Sequence record: PZ386979.1
Origin: a phage
Direction: 5' to 3' (one strand)
Length of the DNA stretch: 51,874 nucleotides
Shown here piece by piece: positions 1,570 to 51,874 of the stretch. Positions within the stretch are counted from its first letter, which is position 1. Every line of letters begins with the position of its first letter. Below the pieces are notes generated by a model that was given only the letters and a program-made list of their open reading frames with translations, was not told the DNA's origin and did not search any database. The position numbers and the translations under genes are program-made.

Positions 1570-2076
1570 ATGAGAAACGCGATCTATGATATAGCCAAAG
1601 ATTACCTTTACTACGATGGCGAGTTCGTCAGATGGAAGGTTCACATTAAGAAAAGCCGATTCCATCCTGGAGATATTGCTGGAACAGTGGACGGAGACGG
1701 ATATATCAGGATCGCGTTGTTCAGACAGTCGGTGTTAGCGCATCGGTTTGCTTGGGAATGGGACAATGGCCCAATACCGGAAGGAATGCAAATTGACCAC
1801 ATAGACCACGTAAGAACAAACAACAAGAGAGACAATTTAAGGATTGTAACGCATGAGCAGAACGGGCAAAACACGAAAAAATCAATCAGAAATACCAGCG
1901 GATGTGTTGGGGTTTATTGGTATGCGTCGCGAGAAAAATGGTGGTCGTTTATAGGTAACGTAGCAAAAGGAACTCGCAAATCACTTGGCTATTATTCTGA
2001 CTGGTTTGATGCCGTTTGCGCCAGAAAGCGAGCGGAGTTTGAACTTGGTTATCACGAAAACCACGGCAAGAAATAG
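1570..2076 (+). CDS. HNH homing endonuclease
   Basis: 168 aa; HNH motif DHIDHVRTNNKRDNLRIVTHEQN; GAGGAG RBS; start abuts terL stop; paralog of 35974..36447 (shared LAHRxxWE, IDHI, LGYHENHGK). Confidence 0.85.
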   Translation: MRNAIYDIAKDYLYYDGEFVRWKVHIKKSRFHPGDIAGTVDGDGYIRIALFRQSVLAHRFAWEWDNGPIPEGMQIDHIDHVRTNNKRDNLRIVTHEQNGQNTKKSIRNTSGCVGVYWYASREKWWSFIGNVAKGTRKSLGYYSDWFDAVCARKRAEFELGYHENHGKK

Positions 2077-20596: not shown

Positions 20597-20625
20597 AAAA
20601 GGGGCTTTCGCCCCTTTATTTTTAT
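20597..20625. terminator. bidirectional terminator between tail operon and cor
   Basis: AAAGGGGC-tttc-GCCCCTTT with T-run on plus strand and A-run upstream. Confidence 0.65.
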
Positions 20626-35391: not shown

Positions 35392-35790
35392 ATGAGAAAG
35401 CTATCAGCAATCGCGATCGCTGTTATTTTGTCTGGATGTTCAAGCGTTATGCCACTGACCGGATTAATCGGCAGTAAGCCGGAAATCACAGCACAGGCAG
35501 GAGCAGAGAACGTAAAACAGACCGTCGGCCTTACAGCAAAGCAGGACGCCAGCAGTAAGCAGGATACAACCATTAAAGAGTCGAAAGTTGACACGGTTGA
35601 TACTTCCAACAAAAAAGAGATCAAAACGTCAACCATTCAGGCTAACACCATCAAGGCCGATAAAATCCAGGTCGTGCAGGGGGAGCAAAGGAAGTGGTAC
35701 GATCCTATAATCTATTGCGCTGCAATTTTCAGTGGTCTTTTGACTATGCTTTACTTTTCCTACCGCAAAGATAACAAAAAGGAGGCTTAA
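35392..35790 (+). CDS. unimolecular spanin (T1 gp11-like)
   Basis: 132 aa; N-terminal lipobox LSGC and C-terminal TMD (IIYCAAIFSGLLTMLYF); last gene of lysis cassette. Confidence 0.7.
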   Translation: MRKLSAIAIAVILSGCSSVMPLTGLIGSKPEITAQAGAENVKQTVGLTAKQDASSKQDTTIKESKVDTVDTSNKKEIKTSTIQANTIKADKIQVVQGEQRKWYDPIIYCAAIFSGLLTMLYFSYRKDNKKEA

Positions 35791-35801
35791 CGCCTCCTTT
35801 G

Positions 35802-35993
35802 TTATTCGATACGCTTTACAGTAACCAACAAAACGCCGTCCTCATCACACAAATTATGCTCTGATATGTTAAACGCTCGCATGTCAGAATGAATGAGCGT
35901 TAACATTGCGTGCATGAAGTCGCCATGTGAGATTTGAGAAGTAGCGCAAAACTTAAGAATTTCATCTATCAGTTTACTTTCCATGATTTTCAT
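35802..35993 (-). CDS. hypothetical protein
   Basis: Track ORF 35802..36044 overlaps HNH 3' end; shortened to internal Met; start uncertain. Confidence 0.3.
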   Translation of the reverse strand: MKIMESKLIDEILKFCATSQISHGDFMHAMLTLIHSDMRAFNISEHNLCDEDGVLLVTVKRIE

Positions 35994-36447
35994 GATAACC
36001 AAGTTTAGCCTCTGCTTGTTCTCTTGCCATAATTGCATCATCAATGCTTGAAAATAATCCTAAATGAATACTCTTACCTTTATCATATATGGTTGCATGC
36101 CATTTTTTTTCTTTCTTCCTCCAGCACACTCCAACCCTACCAGATTTATTTCTTTTTAGTAGAGATACGTTTTTGCTGTTCTCTAATCTTGATGCAAGCC
36201 TTAAATTTTCAATCCTGTTATCCAACCTATTGTGCCATATATGATCTATCTCCATTCCTTCTGGTATTTTTCCATTGTGCATTTCCCATATTATCCTATG
36301 CGCCAAAAGCAATACACCATTATACCTTATTCTTACATAGCCATTTTTATCTACACATCCAGCAACGCTTCCTGGCTTTGCTTTTCCCCTTCTGTTTCTC
36401 CATCTCAATATTCCATTGTCATATATAAATATTTTATTCCAATCCAT
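35974..36447 (-). CDS. HNH homing endonuclease (second copy)
   Basis: 157 aa; paralog of 1570..2076 (LAHRIIWEMHNGKIPEGMEIDHI ... LGYHENHGK); gene body visibly more AT-rich than flanks; overlaps both neighbours. Confidence 0.8.
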   Translation of the reverse strand: MDWNKIFIYDNGILRWRNRRGKAKPGSVAGCVDKNGYVRIRYNGVLLLAHRIIWEMHNGKIPEGMEIDHIWHNRLDNRIENLRLASRLENSKNVSLLKRNKSGRVGVCWRKKEKKWHATIYDKGKSIHLGLFSSIDDAIMAREQAEAKLGYHENHGK

Positions 36448-36826
36448 ATCTTTTCCTTAGAGCTTCTATTTGTTGTCTATTAGCATTTGACGTAAACAAT
36501 TCTTCATCGCTCATTTCTCCGATCCTTAAAACATCCCTTACCCATTCGTTTTGCATACCTTCCAGGCTGTAAAGTTCAAACGAGAAGGGGCGATTTGCTG
36601 ATCCTTTCTTACACCAGAACTTTCCACCAACTCCATCAAGATAACCAGCGGTCATCATTCTTGAGCAAAATTCTTTTGAAACGGCAGTTGCAAACATCCT
36701 CGGCGTAAATCCTGCGGCCCTTGCGAGCCGCTCACATTCTCTATGCTGAAATATAAATTTCGCTATATGTTGACGTGTAAACCATTCGAATGACTCACAC
36801 CAGCGATACAGATCCAGAAGAAACAT
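36434..36826 (-). CDS. hypothetical protein
   Basis: 130 aa; start 4 nt after upstream stop (coupled); no recognised motif. Confidence 0.45.
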   Translation of the reverse strand: MFLLDLYRWCESFEWFTRQHIAKFIFQHRECERLARAAGFTPRMFATAVSKEFCSRMMTAGYLDGVGGKFWCKKGSANRPFSFELYSLEGMQNEWVRDVLRIGEMSDEELFTSNANRQQIEALRKRYGLE

Positions 36827-36828
36827 AA

Positions 36829-38412
36829 TTACCCCAGCAATGTTGGATTTACAAAAACAACGCCATTAATCACACAAATATAATTTCTTTCTTCAAGCAT
36901 CGGCAGCAGTTGCGTTTCCATGCGCTTCATTACGCCAGCCTGACCAACAAAAGGCTTAACTTTTCGCGCAGCCTCATATATGGCTCGCACATTCAAAATT
37001 CCCTTGTTAGCCTTACCGTGTCGAGTGATAATCTCGATTAGTTTACCCATTTCAGCATCATCACCAGCATAGCCAGAAGCGTTGGCGGCGCTAATGTATG
37101 TTTTGCTCAACTCGCTAAACATCAGTAGTGCTTCCTGAACGGTTTCAACCTCAATCTCTTTCGACTTTTGAGGGTATCCGCCAGGATTAAACCAATTGCG
37201 GATAGTGTGCAAAACCGAAGCAATTCTGATCACCTGCTTATCCATTTTGCCAAGCGCGCCGCGCAGCATTGTATGAGAATACTTTCCGCCATCGGCAAGG
37301 TGCGGTTCCATCTCCTGACGAGCCATGTTAAGCACTCGCATTGCTGATTTGCTGATCTTAAGCTGGATGTTTGATTCGCTCATTATGTTATGGATCAGCT
37401 TAAAATATTGGCTTTTCAGTTCTCCATCAACAGGCTCATAAGTCGAATCACCGTTATCATCAACAAACTTTCGACGACCTAAAAATGATTCCTCACGCAC
37501 AAGCAAATAACGCTCACTTACACCGATACCGCGTGATCCTGCGTCCATGATGGCATTGATTGTTTCATCCTGGGCAATTACCGCCATGCAGCCAAGAGCT
37601 TTAAAACTCATATTGTTGTCAGCGTTTGCACGAGCTATAGAAACATGACCATGATCCCATGCTTTTAGCACAAGTTCGCTGTTTGTTTTGCGTTCGCTAT
37701 TGGCATATGTCAGGCCTAAAAGGCTGTTAATACTCGTTGCCTCGTCTGAAATTACAGCAAAGTTACCCTGGCGATTGTTGATTCTTGCAAGTCCTTCAGG
37801 CGTGGTGTCTGAAACAGGGAAAACAATGTCACACATCTTTTCCAGCTTTTCTTCAAGATCTTCTTTCTCCTGGTATAGCGATTCCATATCAGCGCCAGAT
37901 CGCTCGCTTTTCATCTCTTTTGCAAGACCTGCCAACTTTGCCTGAATCTTTTTCCGTTCCTTCTTTCGCTGATCATTAATTCTTTCCACTTCAGCAACCA
38001 TAGGAGCAAGAGCCAGGCTGTTAACGGCAGATTTACCAGTTGAAGGAGGCTGACTTGTGACAACATAAAGGGCGGTTGGCTGATCCGTTCCGTGATACTC
38101 AACCGTGAAGCGTCCAAGCATTGCAGCAGACACGCAGCCGATAAAATGCATATAGGCCGATGATTCAGGGAATTGAACAGAGCGAGCAATGTTTCGCGCC
38201 AACTTACCAACAACATCAACATCATTGCCAAGAGAAATTACAGGGTAGCGATCGTTTCCGTTATTAACATCATTAACCTCACCCCAAAAGCTGGACGATT
38301 GACGGTATCCGTTAGCCTGAATGGACACGCGCACCGGAGACAATCCTTGTGCATCAGCTAATTCGATAATTTGTTTTGGTGTTAGTTTATTTGTTTCAAA
38401 CGAAAAATTCAT
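36829..38412 (-). CDS. P-loop ATPase, putative replication protein (DUF3987-like)
   Basis: Start at ATG 38412 behind AAGGAG RBS; Walker A-like QPPSTGKSA and Walker B-like VISDEATS; adjacent to replication genes. Confidence 0.5.
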   Translation of the reverse strand: MNFSFETNKLTPKQIIELADAQGLSPVRVSIQANGYRQSSSFWGEVNDVNNGNDRYPVISLGNDVDVVGKLARNIARSVQFPESSAYMHFIGCVSAAMLGRFTVEYHGTDQPTALYVVTSQPPSTGKSAVNSLALAPMVAEVERINDQRKKERKKIQAKLAGLAKEMKSERSGADMESLYQEKEDLEEKLEKMCDIVFPVSDTTPEGLARINNRQGNFAVISDEATSINSLLGLTYANSERKTNSELVLKAWDHGHVSIARANADNNMSFKALGCMAVIAQDETINAIMDAGSRGIGVSERYLLVREESFLGRRKFVDDNGDSTYEPVDGELKSQYFKLIHNIMSESNIQLKISKSAMRVLNMARQEMEPHLADGGKYSHTMLRGALGKMDKQVIRIASVLHTIRNWFNPGGYPQKSKEIEVETVQEALLMFSELSKTYISAANASGYAGDDAEMGKLIEIITRHGKANKGILNVRAIYEAARKVKPFVGQAGVMKRMETQLLPMLEERNYICVINGVVFVNPTLLG

Positions 38413-38439
38413 TGATGATAACTCCTTTTTGATGCGGCA

Positions 38440-38483
38440 ATAATACCGCACCAATGCTACCCGCATTTAACAAAAAATGCTAT
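38440..38483 (-). promoter_or_regulatory. conserved element plus -10 (upstream of DUF3987-like gene)
   Basis: Minus-sense ATAGCATTTTTTGTTAAA containing upstream stop TAG; 20-nt spacer; TATTAT; then AAGGAG RBS. Confidence 0.5.
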
Positions 38484-39115: not shown

Positions 39116-39159
39116 ATTATGCCAGGCTTTTACACCTGGCTTTTAACAAAAAGTGCTAT
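39116..39159 (-). promoter_or_regulatory. conserved element plus -10
   Basis: Minus-sense ATAGCACTTTTTGTTAAAA with stop TAG inside; spacer inverted repeat GCCAGG...CCTGGC; CATAAT. Confidence 0.55.
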
Positions 39160-39866
39160 TTTGCGTTAGCTTCAAAGACGGCGCGAGCAAATCCGCGCGG
39201 AGTGAGGGAGCGTAGTTGCTTTGTTCTGGCAGACTTACCGCCTAAAAACTTCCAACCCCAAAAGAACATTACGCCCTCATCATTGGATAACGGCTTGCGT
39301 TCCGGTTCGGTAAATCCGTTGCCGCACCAGATAGCCGTCCTTTTAGTGTAGCCATCCTTTAGCGGCATTTTGGGGTGAAATGACCCATCGGATTCGTCCA
39401 AGTAGTTACCAAAATCGCGCGGATTGAAATAAAAATCCGGCTTGCGCCATAGCGTTGATAGTCGGCCTACCGGATTCTCAGCCATCCAGGGAACACCGAA
39501 ATGATTTCCGACTTTTTCAACCATGATTGCATTTTGGAGCGCGATATGAATATCGTCTTCGCTGCGCACATGCTTACTTCCTGATTGGGCGAACATGGTG
39601 CAGTCTGGAAAGCCAAATACAATATCAGGTTTTGGAATATCCATCTTAATGATGTTTTCAATGAAATTTTCATCAATCCACATATTCACATAATGCAGAT
39701 TTTCATGCTTCATTTTGATGAAATATTCTCCGTGATTGCCTTCGTCAGCGTTAAAGCAATAGCATTGATAACCAGCCTTCGCATATTCAAGCAACATGAT
39801 TCCAGATCCATCAAACATTGAGTAAGCAACTTTATTTCCCATGATTTTTATGATACCCCAATTCAT
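39156..39866 (-). CDS. methyltransferase-like protein (divergent C5-cytosine MTase-like motifs)
   Basis: 236 aa; FDGSG (motif I-like), GFPDCTMFAQSG (PC-like), AENPVG (ENV-like); GAGGTGA RBS; assignment tentative. Confidence 0.35.
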   Translation of the reverse strand: MNWGIIKIMGNKVAYSMFDGSGIMLLEYAKAGYQCYCFNADEGNHGEYFIKMKHENLHYVNMWIDENFIENIIKMDIPKPDIVFGFPDCTMFAQSGSKHVRSEDDIHIALQNAIMVEKVGNHFGVPWMAENPVGRLSTLWRKPDFYFNPRDFGNYLDESDGSFHPKMPLKDGYTKRTAIWCGNGFTEPERKPLSNDEGVMFFWGWKFLGGKSARTKQLRSLTPRGFARAVFEANAK

Positions 39867-39874
39867 TCATCACC

Positions 39875-40099
39875 TCAAAACGGAAAGCATCGAGGGCAGT
39901 TAGGATCAAAATTGCAGCAGCAATCATTGACAATCATCGTTGGATCTGCAAATGCAGCGCCGCATTCTTGGTCCATATCCATTTCACCCAACGCATCATC
40001 AAGCGTCCTGATTTTATATGCGACCTCAAGCGCGGCCTCTTTATTCAGTCCGGCATCTTCTGCTTTTTGCAGTCGCTCAAAAAAACCGTCTTGACTCAT
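39875..40099 (-). CDS. hypothetical protein (Cys-rich C-terminus)
   Basis: 74 aa; acidic; ends DCCCNFDPNCPRCFPF. Confidence 0.45.
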   Translation of the reverse strand: MSQDGFFERLQKAEDAGLNKEAALEVAYKIRTLDDALGEMDMDQECGAAFADPTMIVNDCCCNFDPNCPRCFPF

Positions 40100-42007: not shown

Positions 42008-42041
42008 TGCTATCTCCTGAGCGGTTCGTTTCGATGTGTGT

Positions 42042-42085
42042 AATGTACCCGATCAGGCGGATTCAGTTTTAACAAAAAGTGCTAT
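42042..42085 (-). promoter_or_regulatory. conserved element plus -10 (leftward early promoter)
   Basis: Minus-sense ATAGCACTTTTTGTTAAAAC; 18-nt spacer; TACATT; CAGGAG RBS; first gene of leftward early block. Confidence 0.5.
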
Positions 42086-42381
42086 TTGCTGACTGGTCAT
42101 TATTCCTTCTATTCCATTAATCAGGAATAACAGGAATAATTCATTCGCGATCACCTGGATTGTGAGACTTTGAGTTTGATCAATTTTAATCAGTTGATTA
42201 ACTTTTTGTGTGGAGGGGATGGAGAAACGCGGCCCTCTTGCATCCTTTCCGGCAATCCTGGCGCGCGCATCTGTTATTTCTGTTCCCCATGTTATCTCAA
42301 ATAAGCCTCCGCACTTTTAGATAACAGAATCGGCGTTCATCAACAAAAAGAACAAAATAAAATTTATATATATACCAATAA

Positions 42382-42396
42382 AATCAATAAGTTAGT
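42382..42396 (+). repeat. AATCAATAAGTTAGT 15-mer (copy 2)
   Basis: Identical to 21041..21055. Confidence 0.6.
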
Positions 42397-42626
42397 TATA
42401 TATGTATTTATATTTGTTATTTACTGTTGAGCTTGTTCCATGGGTATATGGTGGGTGTTGATGATTCCTTCATTTAACATTTGTACTTTTTATGCGGTTA
42501 TATATATAGATTTTGCGGCATTATCGAGACAACCAGTGAACGAGATTGAACGAGCTTTAAAATCAATCACTTGCGCGCAATTTTGTTATCGCGTCAAAAA
42601 AAGATGTTATTAGAACGAAAAATCAG

Positions 42627-42655
42627 TTGACTACCTGGCTGTGAGTATTGATAAT
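42627..42655 (+). promoter_or_regulatory. sigma70-like early promoter (TTGACT-17-GATAAT) for rightward early operon
   Basis: -35 TTGACT 42627..42632, -10 GATAAT 42650..42655; upstream TTAGAACGAAAAA block shared with promoter at 21298. Confidence 0.6.
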
Positions 42656-42687
42656 GCACGCAGACAAAACGAAAAGGGAGACAGCAC

Positions 42688-42987
42688 ATGACAAAAATGC
42701 TTGCAATAAACCGAAAACTTGAAGTGAAAGAGATGTCACAAGATGATATTGATGATTTGGCGCGCGGCATGACAACAGGTTACATGCGGAGAATTGTCAA
42801 TCACTTGATTAACTCTGAACGAAATAAGGCCGTATACATCAGCATAAATCACGCTGGAGGGAATGCTGCATCAATGCGACAGATGATTAACAACGTGGCA
42901 AAAGAGTTAAATGTTGATGTTAAGACGTTTGTTGTTGATGGATTCCTGGGCCTGGTAATACTTGAAGTTAACGAAGCGTTTGCATAA
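42688..42987 (+). CDS. hypothetical protein (first rightward early gene)
   Basis: 99 aa; AAGGGAG RBS; 30 nt after sigma70-like promoter TTGACT-17-GATAAT. Confidence 0.5.
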   Translation: MTKMLAINRKLEVKEMSQDDIDDLARGMTTGYMRRIVNHLINSERNKAVYISINHAGGNAASMRQMINNVAKELNVDVKTFVVDGFLGLVILEVNEAFA

Positions 42988-50521: not shown

Positions 50522-50667
50522 TTGACAACGATTTACTGATTGGTTAACATCTTCGGTGTTTACATAAGAGCGGCGTTAGTGCCGAACGGGTGGCGCGGTT
50601 GCCACGCAACAACGGCGATATGCAGGTTTTTACCGTAATACGTATCGCCTTTTTTATAGGTGAATAT

Positions 50668-50901
50668 ATGGAAAAGTACAAATTAACTTTCATGTTTAAT
50701 AGTATGGTGATGAATCCCTTAAATGGTTACGCTTGCAATAGCTTTTCTGTTACCGTGAATGAGGATGAAATTGATGATGATGGCAAATTCATTCGAATTG
50801 GTGAATACTTGTACCCAGTTCACAATATCAATTGCATCAAACGCGAGATCGTAAAAGATGAAGTACAAAGTAAAGCTGACGATCAGGCGAATGGGGCGTA
50901 A
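50668..50901 (+). CDS. hypothetical protein
   Basis: Start ATG 50668 behind AGGTGA RBS, after hairpin plus T-run at 50614..50655. Confidence 0.4.
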   Translation: MEKYKLTFMFNSMVMNPLNGYACNSFSVTVNEDEIDDDGKFIRIGEYLYPVHNINCIKREIVKDEVQSKADDQANGA

Positions 50902-51046
50902 TTGCCAGTCATGTAGGCAGGATTTTGAATGCGAGATTTCAGCGCAAAATCCTGTTGACGCGATTCAATGTGCTAAAGTTATATCAGGTGCAGATCCAGA
51001 GACGCATCAATTTTCAATAAATTTTGTAAGGGAAGTATCATGTTAA
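50858..51046 (+). CDS. hypothetical protein
   Basis: 62 aa; overlaps upstream ORF by 44 nt, weak RBS; several Cys. Confidence 0.3.
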   Translation: MKYKVKLTIRRMGRNCQSCRQDFECEISAQNPVDAIQCAKVISGADPETHQFSINFVREVSC

Positions 51047-51273
51047 ACTTAATTTCTGCTTTTGTTATTGGTTTTGTTTTTGCTGTGATTATTCTGCTTA
51101 TCGCGTCGGAAAAGATTTGCAAATTTCTTGCTAAGAACGGGAAGTTTGCAAGCGCGACATGGAATAACAAGATGCAGCGATGGGATGTGCGCGGTCACTA
51201 TCTGACGATTGGCAGCAAAATCCATCAGCATCTGAAGAATCAAGAAGATGAAAAAGTAAAATACAAGTATTGA
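51040..51273 (+). CDS. small membrane protein
   Basis: 77 aa; N-terminal TMD (LISAFVIGFVFAVIILLIA); AAGGGAAG RBS; terminator follows. Confidence 0.45.
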   Translation: MLNLISAFVIGFVFAVIILLIASEKICKFLAKNGKFASATWNNKMQRWDVRGHYLTIGSKIHQHLKNQEDEKVKYKY

Positions 51274-51280
51274 CCAACTA

Positions 51281-51304
51281 CCCGCCAAATGGCGGGTTTT
51301 TTAT
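51281..51304 (+). terminator. rho-independent terminator before terS
   Basis: CCCGCC-aaat-GGCGGG followed by TTTTTT. Confidence 0.7.
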
Positions 51305-51353
51305 TGCCTACAATTTGTCTATAATGATGCTTTGTTATAAAGGAGGGCGCATT

Positions 51354-51874
51354 ATGGCTAAAAACGTTGAGCCAGCAGTAAAGGCTTGCAATTTTAAAAA
51401 ACTATATAATAAGCAATATGGCGATATAGCAAAAATGACAAAGGCGCACAAGTACACGCCGGAACAGGTATTTGATCTGGCTGTGCGTTACTTTACGTGG
51501 GCAGAGGAAAATCATATACAGGCTGCGGAAACGGCATCCTTTCAGGGTGACGTATACGAAAGCAAGATTCACAAGCCGCGCGTTTTCACCTTAAATGGAT
51601 TCCGCTTATTCGCTGGCCTTTCTGCTTCCGTGCTTGAGAAATGGCGACGCGAGCCAGGATTCAGCGATGTTATGGACTTTATCGACGGAGTTGTTTACGA
51701 GCAAAAATTCCAGCTTGCTGCAAACAATATTGTTAACGCCGGATTCATTGGTAAAGAGATCGGCATTGAAAAGCCAGCTACCGTTACCATTGAGAATAAC
51801 ACAAGCGCAAGCGTTGACGCTGTAACGGCGGAGGAAGTCAAAGAGGCGGTAATTGACATTCTGGAGAAGATATA
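51354..51874 (+). CDS. terS: terminase small subunit (putative; 3' end runs off window, completed by nt 1)
   Basis: Open frame from ATG 51354 (AAGGAGGG RBS) to window end with no stop; last two nt TA plus nt 1 (A) give TAA overlapping terL ATG; position upstream of terL. Confidence 0.45.
   Translation, partial: MAKNVEPAVKACNFKKLYNKQYGDIAKMTKAHKYTPEQVFDLAVRYFTWAEENHIQAAETASFQGDVYESKIHKPRVFTLNGFRLFAGLSASVLEKWRREPGFSDVMDFIDGVVYEQKFQLAANNIVNAGFIGKEIGIEKPATVTIENNTSASVDAVTAEEVKEAVIDILEKI

What the first reader, a model, noticed from the sequence alone, without database searches (positions are those of the whole stretch)
35974..36447. Second HNH endonuclease gene is visibly AT-richer than its flanks and overlaps both neighbours
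The gene is a paralog of the HNH gene at 1570..2076 but its DNA is markedly more AT-rich than surrounding sequence (by eye; long runs of A/T-rich codons). Its ends overlap 36434..36826 and 35802..35993, as expected for a recently inserted free-standing homing endonuclease. T1 is reported to carry several endonuclease genes.
Basis: partly seen in the sequence, partly recalled or inferred. Interest (0 to 1): 0.55.

Follow-up and report, generated by a model that had tools for sequence, protein, structure and literature searches.

The report
Mobile HNH homing endonuclease cassette
This is an ordinary selfish "homing endonuclease" gene that has inserted between two small genes of a T1-like (Hanrivervirus) coliphage; most sister phages lack it, one phage of another genus acquired it laterally, and another phage carries a decayed copy.

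Summary
ORF 35974..36447 (- strand, 157 aa) is an intact HNH_3 nuclease, 46% identical to the HNH at 1570..2076. At 34.6% GC (GC3 28%) it is the most AT-rich of 79 crude genes in a 44.0% GC window. It overlaps its upstream neighbour by 14 nt and its downstream neighbour by 20 nt.

The window is not T1. It is a Hanrivervirus (Drexlerviridae, Tempevirinae), 98% identical to phage Fulano1.

About 45 close relatives lack the gene. In them the two neighbours overlap each other by 74 nt in different frames. In the window, 538 nt (35935..36472) replace 27 nt of that overlap. The inserted segment carries the HNH gene plus recoded private copies of the upstream gene's tail and the downstream gene's head.

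Warwickvirus tonnikala is 97-98% identical to its congener tonn everywhere except this segment, where it matches the window at 89-97% (rest of the locus 74-82%). That is lateral transfer. Decayed copies exist: a frameshift in the BEK phages and a truncation in A136.

dN/dS is 0.22-0.30. The protein combines an I-HmuI-like catalytic domain with an AP2-like DNA-binding domain. It is a typical free-standing HNH-AP2 homing endonuclease gene. The case is well documented but ordinary. AT-richness is shared by all but one of the related HEGs measured, so it is not proof of recent insertion.

The parts
35974..36447 (-). HNH-AP2 homing endonuclease gene (157 aa). Residues 1-105 form an I-HmuI-like N-terminal and HNH catalytic region. 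Residues ~96-150 form an AP2-like DNA-binding domain.
   Evidence: ORF. Pfam HNH_3 76.5 bits against a cut-off of 24.8; AP2 21.2 bits, below its cut-off. PHROG 99, 2.4e-67. Profile against PDB: I-HmuI 1U3E 2e-7 and AP2/ERF protein WRI1 4e-5. AF2 model pLDDT 91.9. Foldseek top hits 1u3e and 1gcc. D68 and H69 are invariant in 45 homologues. dN/dS 0.22-0.30.
35935..36472 (-). The HEG-specific cassette. These 538 nt (GC 34.4%) stand in place of 27 nt (AATATTGAAGTTCTGCGCCGTAAGTTC) of the empty allele, a net gain of 511 nt.
   Evidence: Junction comparison of 5 HNH+ and 5 HNH- alleles. Coordinates read. GC.
36437..36472 (-). Recoded private copy of the last 12 codons of the upstream YdbL-like gene: QIEALRKRYGLE, against NIEVLRRKFNLT in empty alleles. 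It contains the HNH Shine-Dalgarno AAGGA (36454..36458) and overlaps the HNH start codon.
35935..35993 (-). Recoded private copy of the 5' end of the downstream small ORF: M(K I)MESKLIDEILKFCATSQ, against MKNCLRQMLIDKILKFCAVSS in empty alleles. Its ATGs (35993 and 35984) lie inside the last codons of the HNH gene, whose stop is at 35974..35976.
36466..36507 (-). Relic of the ancestral start of the small ORF (MKNCLRQMLIDNK*). It is cut off by the insertion after 11 conserved codons and lies inside the YdbL-like gene in another frame.
   Evidence: compared with the empty-allele ORF MKNCLRQMLIDKILKF....
36473..36484 (-). Left junction 12-mer GCTAATAGACAA. It is invariant in the window, tonn and tonnikala, and present in the Hanrivervirus empty alleles examined. 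The switch to cassette sequence happens immediately after it in Hanrivervirus and in Warwickvirus tonnikala.
36434..36826 (-). Upstream neighbour: YdbL-like protein of unknown function (130 aa, PHROG 2794). It is 50% identical to T1 ST10.
35802..35993 (-). Downstream neighbour: small ORF of unknown function (63 aa, PHROG 9539). It travelled with the HNH gene into tonnikala and is deleted together with most of the HNH gene in A136.
35778..35800 (.). Bidirectional intrinsic terminator shared with the spanin gene. It ends the leftward helicase-YdbL-HNH-small ORF unit. The right breakpoint of the transferred tract in tonnikala lies inside its stem.

Best explanation
The gene is a free-standing (intron-less, intein-less) HNH-AP2 homing endonuclease gene (HEG). 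It sits in the leftward helicase - YdbL-like - small-ORF transcription unit of a Hanrivervirus.

Shown:
- It occupies a site that is empty in most relatives.
- It replaces 27 nt of a 74-nt dual-coding overlap between its two neighbours.
- It carries recoded copies of both gene ends, so both neighbours stay intact.
- It has moved between phage genera together with the downstream small ORF.
- It is under purifying selection.
- It also exists in frameshifted and truncated forms.

Inferred:
- In a mixed infection the enzyme binds, through its N-terminal beta-sheet region and its AP2-like domain, a sequence present only in the HEG-less allele.
- That sequence most likely lies in or just downstream of the replaced overlap segment.
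- The enzyme nicks or cuts there with its HNH (beta-beta-alpha-metal) site.
- The break is repaired by the phage's RecE/Erf-type recombination functions using the HEG+ genome as template. This copies the cassette and the adjacent small ORF into the recipient.
- The HEG+ allele is immune because the 27-nt segment is gone and neither recoded copy matches it.
- Expression is probably by read-through from the upstream genes, with translational coupling. No promoter-like site was found, the AAGGA Shine-Dalgarno sits 6 nt before the ATG, and the start and stop codons overlap both neighbours.
For: Presence or absence at a collinear locus. Ten records cover 99-100% of a 3-kb query, and about 45 cover 82-83% in separate pieces and lack the gene. 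An empty-junction query is matched at 90% identity or more in 62 records, including the four HNH+ BEK records, where it is split in two pieces; the sampled >=95% rows are single uninterrupted matches.

Exact junctions. These are given.

Lateral transfer. Tonnikala is 97-98% identical to tonn in holin, endolysin, spanin, YdbL body and helicase. In the YdbL tail, the HNH gene and the small ORF it is instead 93%, 89% and 94-97% identical to the window, against 74-82% in the rest of the locus. The breakpoints lie right after GCTAATAGACAA and inside the terminator stem. The same pattern appears with BEK7: endolysin 76%, HNH 99.2%.

Functionality. dN/dS is 0.22-0.30. D68 and H69 are invariant, and N77, N81, N90 and N93 are invariant or nearly so.

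Fold. I-HmuI scores 2e-7 and AP2/ERF 4e-5 by profile search. By Foldseek the top hits are 1u3e (probability 1.00, 95 columns) and 1gcc (rmsd 1.3 A over 48 columns).

HEG life-cycle states. The BEK phages carry a 1-nt deletion in the A8 run. A136 keeps the recoded YdbL tail and 21 HNH codons, then is deleted through to the terminator.

Not an intron. There is no Rfam match, and the flanks are two separate ORFs in different frames.

Recombination functions. A RecE-like exonuclease is present, 63% identical to T1 exonuclease VIII.

Known category. HNH-AP2 is a recognised HEG category in T4-related phages (PMC2993671). Intronless homing with co-conversion is established (PMC2988022).
Against: No cleavage, nicking or super-Mendelian inheritance has been shown for this enzyme or for any close homologue that I could find.

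The target site is unknown. [quoted passage not shown] Placing the target in the replaced 27 nt is therefore only an inference, based on the narrow one-sided conversion tract in tonnikala.

I-HmuI-type enzymes nick rather than make double-strand breaks, so the initiating lesion is uncertain.

The cross-genus tract could in principle come from ordinary homologous recombination without endonuclease help.

Several of the comparison genomes ('Campylobacter phage' A15a and A136, and 2019SD1) are flagged UNVERIFIED.
Confidence: 0.8

Rival explanations
1. The gene is ancestral to Tempevirinae at this locus. It was lost by deletion in most lineages, and no homing is involved.
For: Deletions that remove the gene do occur, as in A136. 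A crossover between the two recoded LID-coding copies (CTAATAGAC and CTGATAGAT) could regenerate an in-frame small ORF (sequence).
Against: The empty allele is a precise 74-nt dual-coding overlap with both frames intact. It tracks genome phylogeny: Hanrivervirus and Warwickvirus empties are about 75% identical, like their flanks. The cassette, by contrast, is 89-97% identical across the same two genera. The observed loss in A136 is imprecise and takes the small ORF with it. A crossover between the two copies would truncate YdbL by 12 codons, which is seen in none of the empty alleles. T1 has the YdbL homologue without an HNH gene.
Confidence: 0.06
2. The nuclease has been domesticated. It mainly serves the phage, for example by excluding markers of competing phages, degrading foreign or host DNA, or amplifying neighbouring genes. 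Its own spread is secondary.
For: It is under purifying selection. It is embedded in, and translationally coupled within, an early replication operon. A phage HEG with a host-defence-evasion role has been described for T-even SegB (PMC13096335, listed).
Against: The gene is dispensable, being absent from most relatives, frameshifted in the BEK phages and truncated in A136. No defence or anti-defence gene is adjacent; the neighbours are of unknown function. This rival is not exclusive with homing, since marker exclusion is a by-product of homing.
Confidence: 0.1
3. It is an inactive, decaying relic whose AT-richness reflects mutational decay.
For: It is the lowest-GC gene in the window. Decayed copies exist in relatives.
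Against: The ORF is intact and the catalytic D-H...N...N residues are conserved. dN/dS is 0.22-0.30 over dS up to about 1. The structure prediction is confident. The AT-rich composition is stable across diverged functional-looking alleles.
Confidence: 0.03
4. It is encoded in a group I intron or an intein that interrupts a single gene.
For: Many phage HNH enzymes of the I-HmuI type are intron-encoded.
Against: There is no Rfam family match at E<=1 in 35500..37000. In empty alleles the flanks are two distinct overlapping ORFs in different frames, not one gene. The HNH ORF has its own Shine-Dalgarno, start and stop codons.
Confidence: 0.01

Closest known systems
I-HmuI (phage SPO1; PDB 1U3E), an HNH homing endonuclease
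   Same: The N-terminal DNA-binding beta-sheet region and the HNH catalytic core match. Profile E-value is 2e-7 over residues 1-105. Foldseek probability is 1.00 over 95 columns at rmsd 3.2 A.
   Different: I-HmuI is encoded in a group I intron, carries a C-terminal helix-turn-helix domain and is a nicking enzyme (established knowledge). Here the gene is free-standing and the C-terminal domain is AP2-like. Sequence identity is only 21%.
HNH-AP2 class of putative homing endonucleases, recognised in T4-related phages such as RB16, RB43, RB49 and JSE (PMC2993671, Table 5)
   Same: The two-domain architecture is the same: HNH_3 plus an AP2-like DNA-binding domain. So are the small size, the sporadic distribution and the multiple paralogues per genome.
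   Different: The phage family is different (Drexlerviridae). As far as I could find, no member of this class has a mapped target site, so the comparison rests on architecture only.
Free-standing seg and mob endonucleases of T4 ('intronless homing': SegF, SegG, MobE)
   Same: The gene is inserted between genes and is polymorphic among relatives. Flanking markers are co-converted: here the small ORF travels with the HEG. Degenerate copies occur (PMC2988022).
   Different: Seg enzymes are GIY-YIG, and mob enzymes are HNH with other DNA-binding domains. T4 HEGs lie in true intergenic gaps and often cut far from their own gene. Here the insertion lies inside a 74-nt gene overlap, and the cassette supplies recoded copies of both gene ends.
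The three annotated HNH endonuclease genes of phage T1 (ST63, ST15, ST8)
   Same: Same virus family and same general type of small HNH gene scattered in early regions.
   Different: None of them lies at the YdbL/small-ORF junction. T1 has ST10 (a YdbL homologue at 50% identity) followed directly by the terminator. T1 belongs to Tunavirinae, while the window is a Tempevirinae Hanrivervirus.

Membership tests
HNH (beta-beta-alpha-metal) nuclease, Pfam HNH_3 / PHROG 99 | Significant match to the family profile, above the curated threshold | tested here: met
   HNH_3 scores 76.5 bits against a cut-off of 24.8, E 1.2e-21. PHROG 99 scores 2.4e-67.
HNH (beta-beta-alpha-metal) nuclease, Pfam HNH_3 / PHROG 99 | Catalytic His (preceded by Asp) and the downstream Asn residues are conserved | tested here: met
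   D68, H69, N77 and N93 are invariant, and H72, N81 and N90 are >=90% conserved, in a 45-sequence alignment. The motif reads EIDHIWHNRLDNRIENLRLASRLEN.
HNH (beta-beta-alpha-metal) nuclease, Pfam HNH_3 / PHROG 99 | Fold like that of a solved HNH homing endonuclease | tested here: met
   The AF2 model has pLDDT 91.9. The best PDB fold match is I-HmuI 1u3e with probability 1.00. The profile E-value is 2e-7.
HNH-AP2 homing endonuclease class | C-terminal AP2/ERF-like DNA-binding domain | tested here: met
   Pfam AP2 scores only 21.2 bits, below its cut-off of 33.3. However, the family profile hits the AP2/ERF protein WRI1 at 4e-5 over residues 96-150. The model superposes on the AtERF1 GCC-box domain at rmsd 1.3 A over 48 columns with probability 1.00.
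Free-standing homing endonuclease gene (intronless homing) | Not embedded in an intron or intein; has its own translation signals | tested here: met
   No Rfam match. The flanks are two separate ORFs. AAGGA lies 6 nt before the ATG.
Free-standing homing endonuclease gene (intronless homing) | Sporadic presence or absence at the same site among close relatives | tested here: met
   About 10 records carry the gene and about 45 lack it among relatives covering at least 80% of the locus. Empty junctions are intact.
Free-standing homing endonuclease gene (intronless homing) | The gene and adjacent DNA are more similar between lineages than the rest of the genome (lateral transfer or co-conversion) | tested here: met
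   In tonnikala the cassette is 89-97% identical to the window, while the rest of the locus is 74-82% identical to the window and 97-98% identical to tonn. Breakpoints are mapped.
Free-standing homing endonuclease gene (intronless homing) | The HEG-containing allele lacks the enzyme's target | tested here: inconclusive
   The 27 nt of the empty allele are replaced, and neither recoded copy matches them well: 9 of 11 and 14 of 18 in the best local alignments. The real target is unknown.
Free-standing homing endonuclease gene (intronless homing) | Site-specific cleavage or nicking of the HEG-less allele, and super-Mendelian inheritance in mixed infection | not testable with these tools
   This needs purified enzyme and phage crosses.
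Group I intron-encoded HNH endonuclease | The ORF lies within a self-splicing intron that interrupts a host gene | tested here: not met
   No group I intron model matches 35500..37000 at E<=1. No single interrupted gene exists.
Terminase-associated HNH packaging factor (HK97 gp74 type) | Conserved position next to the terminase genes and presence in all relatives | tested here: not met
   The gene lies between the helicase/YdbL genes and the lysis genes. It is absent from most relatives.

The most novel reading that the evidence does not exclude
The cassette is more than a HEG in a gap. It has unpacked a 74-nt dual-coding gene overlap by carrying recoded private copies of both gene ends.

This preserves both neighbours and erases the presumed target. 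It also places the only start codons of the downstream small ORF inside the last codons of the HEG, so that translation of that ORF depends on HEG translation. Loss of the HEG would then tend to take the small ORF with it, as seen in A136. That amounts to a built-in linkage or 'addiction' that stabilises the selfish gene.
Probability: 0.2. Interest if true: 0.4.

Novelty: new member of a known kind. Interest (0 to 1): 0.25.

Why it matters
The locus is a clean natural example of the full homing-endonuclease life cycle in Drexlerviridae. One locus shows the empty site, two diverged intact alleles, a cross-genus transfer with mapped breakpoints, a frameshifted copy and a truncated copy.

It gives a precisely defined pair of alleles for testing the specificity of an HNH-AP2 enzyme. 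As far as I could find, this class has no mapped target.

For practical work it flags a region that should be masked in phylogenies of these phages. It also shows that local AT-richness marks HEGs in this group. It does not change what is known about how such elements work.

Tried and rejected
- Group I intron or other structured RNA. The Rfam scan of 35500..37000 at E<=1 gave nothing.
- Own promoter. No sigma-70-like site was found in 35600..37000, against 4.7 expected by chance. Only the shared terminator was found.
- Transposon-like ends or target-site duplication. The repeat search found only short chance matches. The two copies of the overlap are too diverged to count as repeats.
- Direct sequence search of PDB with the single protein. 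It gave only a spurious CDK1 hit. The family profile was needed.
- Third paralogue. A weak tblastn hit at 39835..40014 is only a 21-codon C-terminal relic, not a gene.
- Phage 2019SD1 as an informative variant. It was rejected because the record is rearranged and flagged UNVERIFIED_ASMBLY.
- AT-richness as a clock for recent arrival. It was rejected because alleles diverged by 11-28% keep the same composition.
- T1 identity. It was rejected.

Full report
**What is there**

The window is a Hanrivervirus-like genome (Drexlerviridae, Tempevirinae). A 3-kb query around the finding matches phage Fulano1 at 98% and many Hanriverviruses at 92-96%. It is not T1. T1 (NC_005833) has three annotated HNH genes, none at this junction, and its YdbL homologue ST10 (50% identical) is followed directly by the terminator.

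On the - strand the order is:

| Feature | Coordinates |
|---|---|
| Helicase | 36829..38466 |
| YdbL-like ORF | 36434..36826 |
| HNH ORF | 35974..36447 |
| Small ORF | 35802..35993 |
| Bidirectional terminator, shared with the rightward spanin gene | 35778..35800 |

No sigma-70-like promoter is predicted in 35600..37000.

**Observation check**

- The HNH ORF has 34.6% GC against 44.0% for the window. Only 0.7% of 474-nt windows are as low (z = -3.3).
- It is the lowest-GC gene of 79 crude genes, with GC3 of 28% against a mean of 43.7%.
- Encoding the same protein with the window's codon usage would give 44.0% GC, so the bias is synonymous.
- It overlaps its upstream neighbour by 14 nt and its downstream neighbour by 20 nt.
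- It is 46% identical to the HNH protein of 1570..2076.

All three stated observations are confirmed.

**The protein**

- Pfam HNH_3 scores 76.5 bits (cut-off 24.8). There is a sub-threshold AP2 hit. PHROG 99 matches.
- More than 1000 homologue clusters exist, mostly on roughly 45-60 kb phage-sized contigs.
- In a 45-sequence alignment D68, H69, N77 and N93 are invariant, and H72, N81 and N90 nearly so.
- The family profile hits I-HmuI (1U3E) at 2e-7 over residues 1-105, and the AP2/ERF protein WRI1 at 4e-5 over residues 96-150.
- The AlphaFold2 model is confident, with pLDDT 91.9.
- Its best PDB fold matches are I-HmuI and the AtERF1 GCC-box AP2 domain, the latter at rmsd 1.3 A over 48 columns.

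This is the HNH-AP2 architecture already listed as a HEG category in T4-related phages (PMC2993671).

**Insertion site**

In the HNH-less relatives aalborv, pSf-1, aaroes, vojen and Henu8:
- the YdbL-like gene ends ...NANRQNIEVLRRKFNLT*;
- the 64-aa small ORF starts MKNCLRQMLIDKILKFCAVSS...;
- the two overlap by 74 nt in different frames.

Between fixed anchors the empty allele measures 111 nt and the filled allele 622 nt.

Sequence identity to the empty allele ends right after GCTAATAGACAA (window 36473..36484). It resumes at AATCTCACATG (window <=35934). So window 35935..36472 (538 nt, 34.4% GC) replaces 27 nt, AATATTGAAGTTCTGCGCCGTAAGTTC.

The cassette contains three parts:
- A recoded YdbL tail, QIEALRKRYGLE*.
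- The HNH gene, with AAGGA 6 nt before its ATG.
- A recoded small-ORF head, M(KI)MESKLIDEILKFCATSQ, whose ATGs lie within the last HNH codons.

The ancestral small-ORF start survives upstream as a 13-codon relic, MKNCLRQMLIDNK* (36466..36507). Neither recoded copy resembles the 27-mer closely. No intron model matches and no terminal repeats flank the segment.

**Mobility**

Among records covering at least 80% of the 3-kb locus, about 10 carry the gene: Fulano1, four BEK phages, A15a, A16a, tonnikala (two records) and brachmannus. About 45 lack it. Among the sampled rows of the empty-junction search, those at 95% identity or more are single uninterrupted matches; 62 records match at 90% or more, four of them the HNH+ BEK phages, where the match is split in two.

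Identity of the window to other phages is higher in the cassette than in the flanks:

| Phage | Cassette / HNH | Flanks |
|---|---|---|
| Fulano1 | 100% | 92-99.8% |
| BEK7 | 99.2% | 76-97% |

The decisive case is Warwickvirus tonnikala.
- It is 97-98% identical to its congener tonn (HNH-less) in holin, endolysin, spanin, YdbL body and helicase.
- In the last 43 nt of YdbL, the HNH gene and the small ORF it matches the window at 93%, 89% and 94-97%.
- The rest of the tonnikala locus is only 74-82% identical to the window.
- The left breakpoint is immediately after GCTAATAGACAA. The right breakpoint is inside the terminator stem.

The tract is therefore one-sided. It includes the whole small ORF, and in tonnikala it displaced the different downstream gene that tonn has.

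**Second allele, selection and decay**

- A15a and A16a carry a second, diverged allele at the same site: 72% nucleotide and 64% amino-acid identity, with a different YdbL tail.
- dN/dS among the three alleles is 0.22-0.30, with dS up to about 1. The protein is therefore maintained.
- The BEK phages have a 1-nt deletion in the A8 run, which splits the ORF.
- A136 keeps the recoded YdbL tail and the first 21 HNH codons, 100% identical to the window. It is then deleted through to the terminator, losing the small ORF as well.

The locus thus shows empty, occupied, frameshifted and truncated states.

**Composition**

The other HNH alleles and paralogues in relatives are also AT-rich, at 33-38% GC with GC3 of 27-33%. 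These are tonnikala, A15a, the HNH between YdbL and helicase in Fulano1 and pSf-1, and the GS71 HNH next to the methyltransferase. The window's HNH1 is 44.6%.

AT-richness is therefore shared by all but one of the HEGs measured in this group, and it is retained over substantial divergence. It is not a reliable sign of recent arrival.

**Mechanism**

The following is inferred, not shown. In mixed infections the enzyme recognises and nicks or cuts the HEG-less allele. Repair then copies the cassette from the HEG+ genome, using the phage RecE-like and Erf-type functions (RecE homologue 63% identical to T1 exonuclease VIII).

The narrow, downstream-only conversion tract in tonnikala suggests that the lesion lies at or downstream of the junction, in the overlap segment or the small ORF. 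However, free-standing endonucleases can cut far from their own gene (PMC2988022), and I-HmuI-type enzymes nick. Both the site and the chemistry remain open.

**Verdict**

Its interpretation is supported, with three corrections: the phage is not T1, AT-richness is not a clock, and the overlaps are part of the cassette design and not scars.

The element is a new, well-delineated member of a known kind. Presence/absence of putative homing endonucleases, and the gene conversion they cause, has been noted for other E. coli phage groups (PMC8594841). The gene is already annotated as an HNH or homing endonuclease in GenBank relatives. Interest is low to moderate.

Noticed in passing
window 1570..2076 (+): The first HNH gene lies between the terminase large subunit and portal genes. 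It too is absent from most relatives, including the closest one, Fulano1 (79% query coverage in two pieces). It is present in BEK12A, BEK26, A120 and A121. It therefore looks like another free-standing HEG, but with genome-like GC (44.6%).
   Followed up: partly
window 39832..39900 (-): A relic of the C-terminus of an HNH-AP2 gene (...ALDAFRFEVMNELGYHKNHGK*) sits directly upstream of, and overlaps the start of, the DNA methyltransferase-like ORF 39156..39866. Tlsvirus vB_GS71 has an intact HNH gene at exactly this position, overlapping the methyltransferase start.
   Followed up: partly
window 36826/36829 junction; L002 2431..2904; L005 2216..2728: Fulano1 and pSf-1 carry yet another HNH gene between the YdbL-like gene and the helicase. 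The Fulano1 copy is 52% identical to the one studied. The window has an empty site there.
   Followed up: no
L014 (phage A136) 950..1189; also A119: A truncated copy of the same HEG. It keeps the recoded YdbL tail and 21 HNH codons, then a roughly 580-nt deletion with GAA microhomology runs to the terminator and removes the small ORF. This suggests that the small ORF is dispensable.
   Followed up: yes
window 36103..36110 (T8 on + strand, A8 in the gene); L003 (BEK7): The four BEK phages share a 1-nt deletion and an A>G change in this homopolymer, which frameshifts the HNH gene. This could be real pseudogenisation or a homopolymer sequencing error.
   Followed up: partly
window 20613..21499, 42011..42860, 50604..51442: These are other AT-rich islands (minimum 32.5-36% GC). 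The first spans a Cor-like lipoprotein ORF (20626..20853) and a gap before the RecE-like gene. The second is largely free of long ORFs.
   Followed up: no
L006 (Shigella phage 2019SD1); MG0656xx 'Campylobacter phage' records: 2019SD1 has a scrambled version of this locus, with a chimeric HNH and an inverted helicase, and NCBI flags it UNVERIFIED_ASMBLY. About 20 records named 'Campylobacter phage' are UNVERIFIED Hanriverviruses that are nearly identical to coliphages, so their host labels are doubtful.
   Followed up: no
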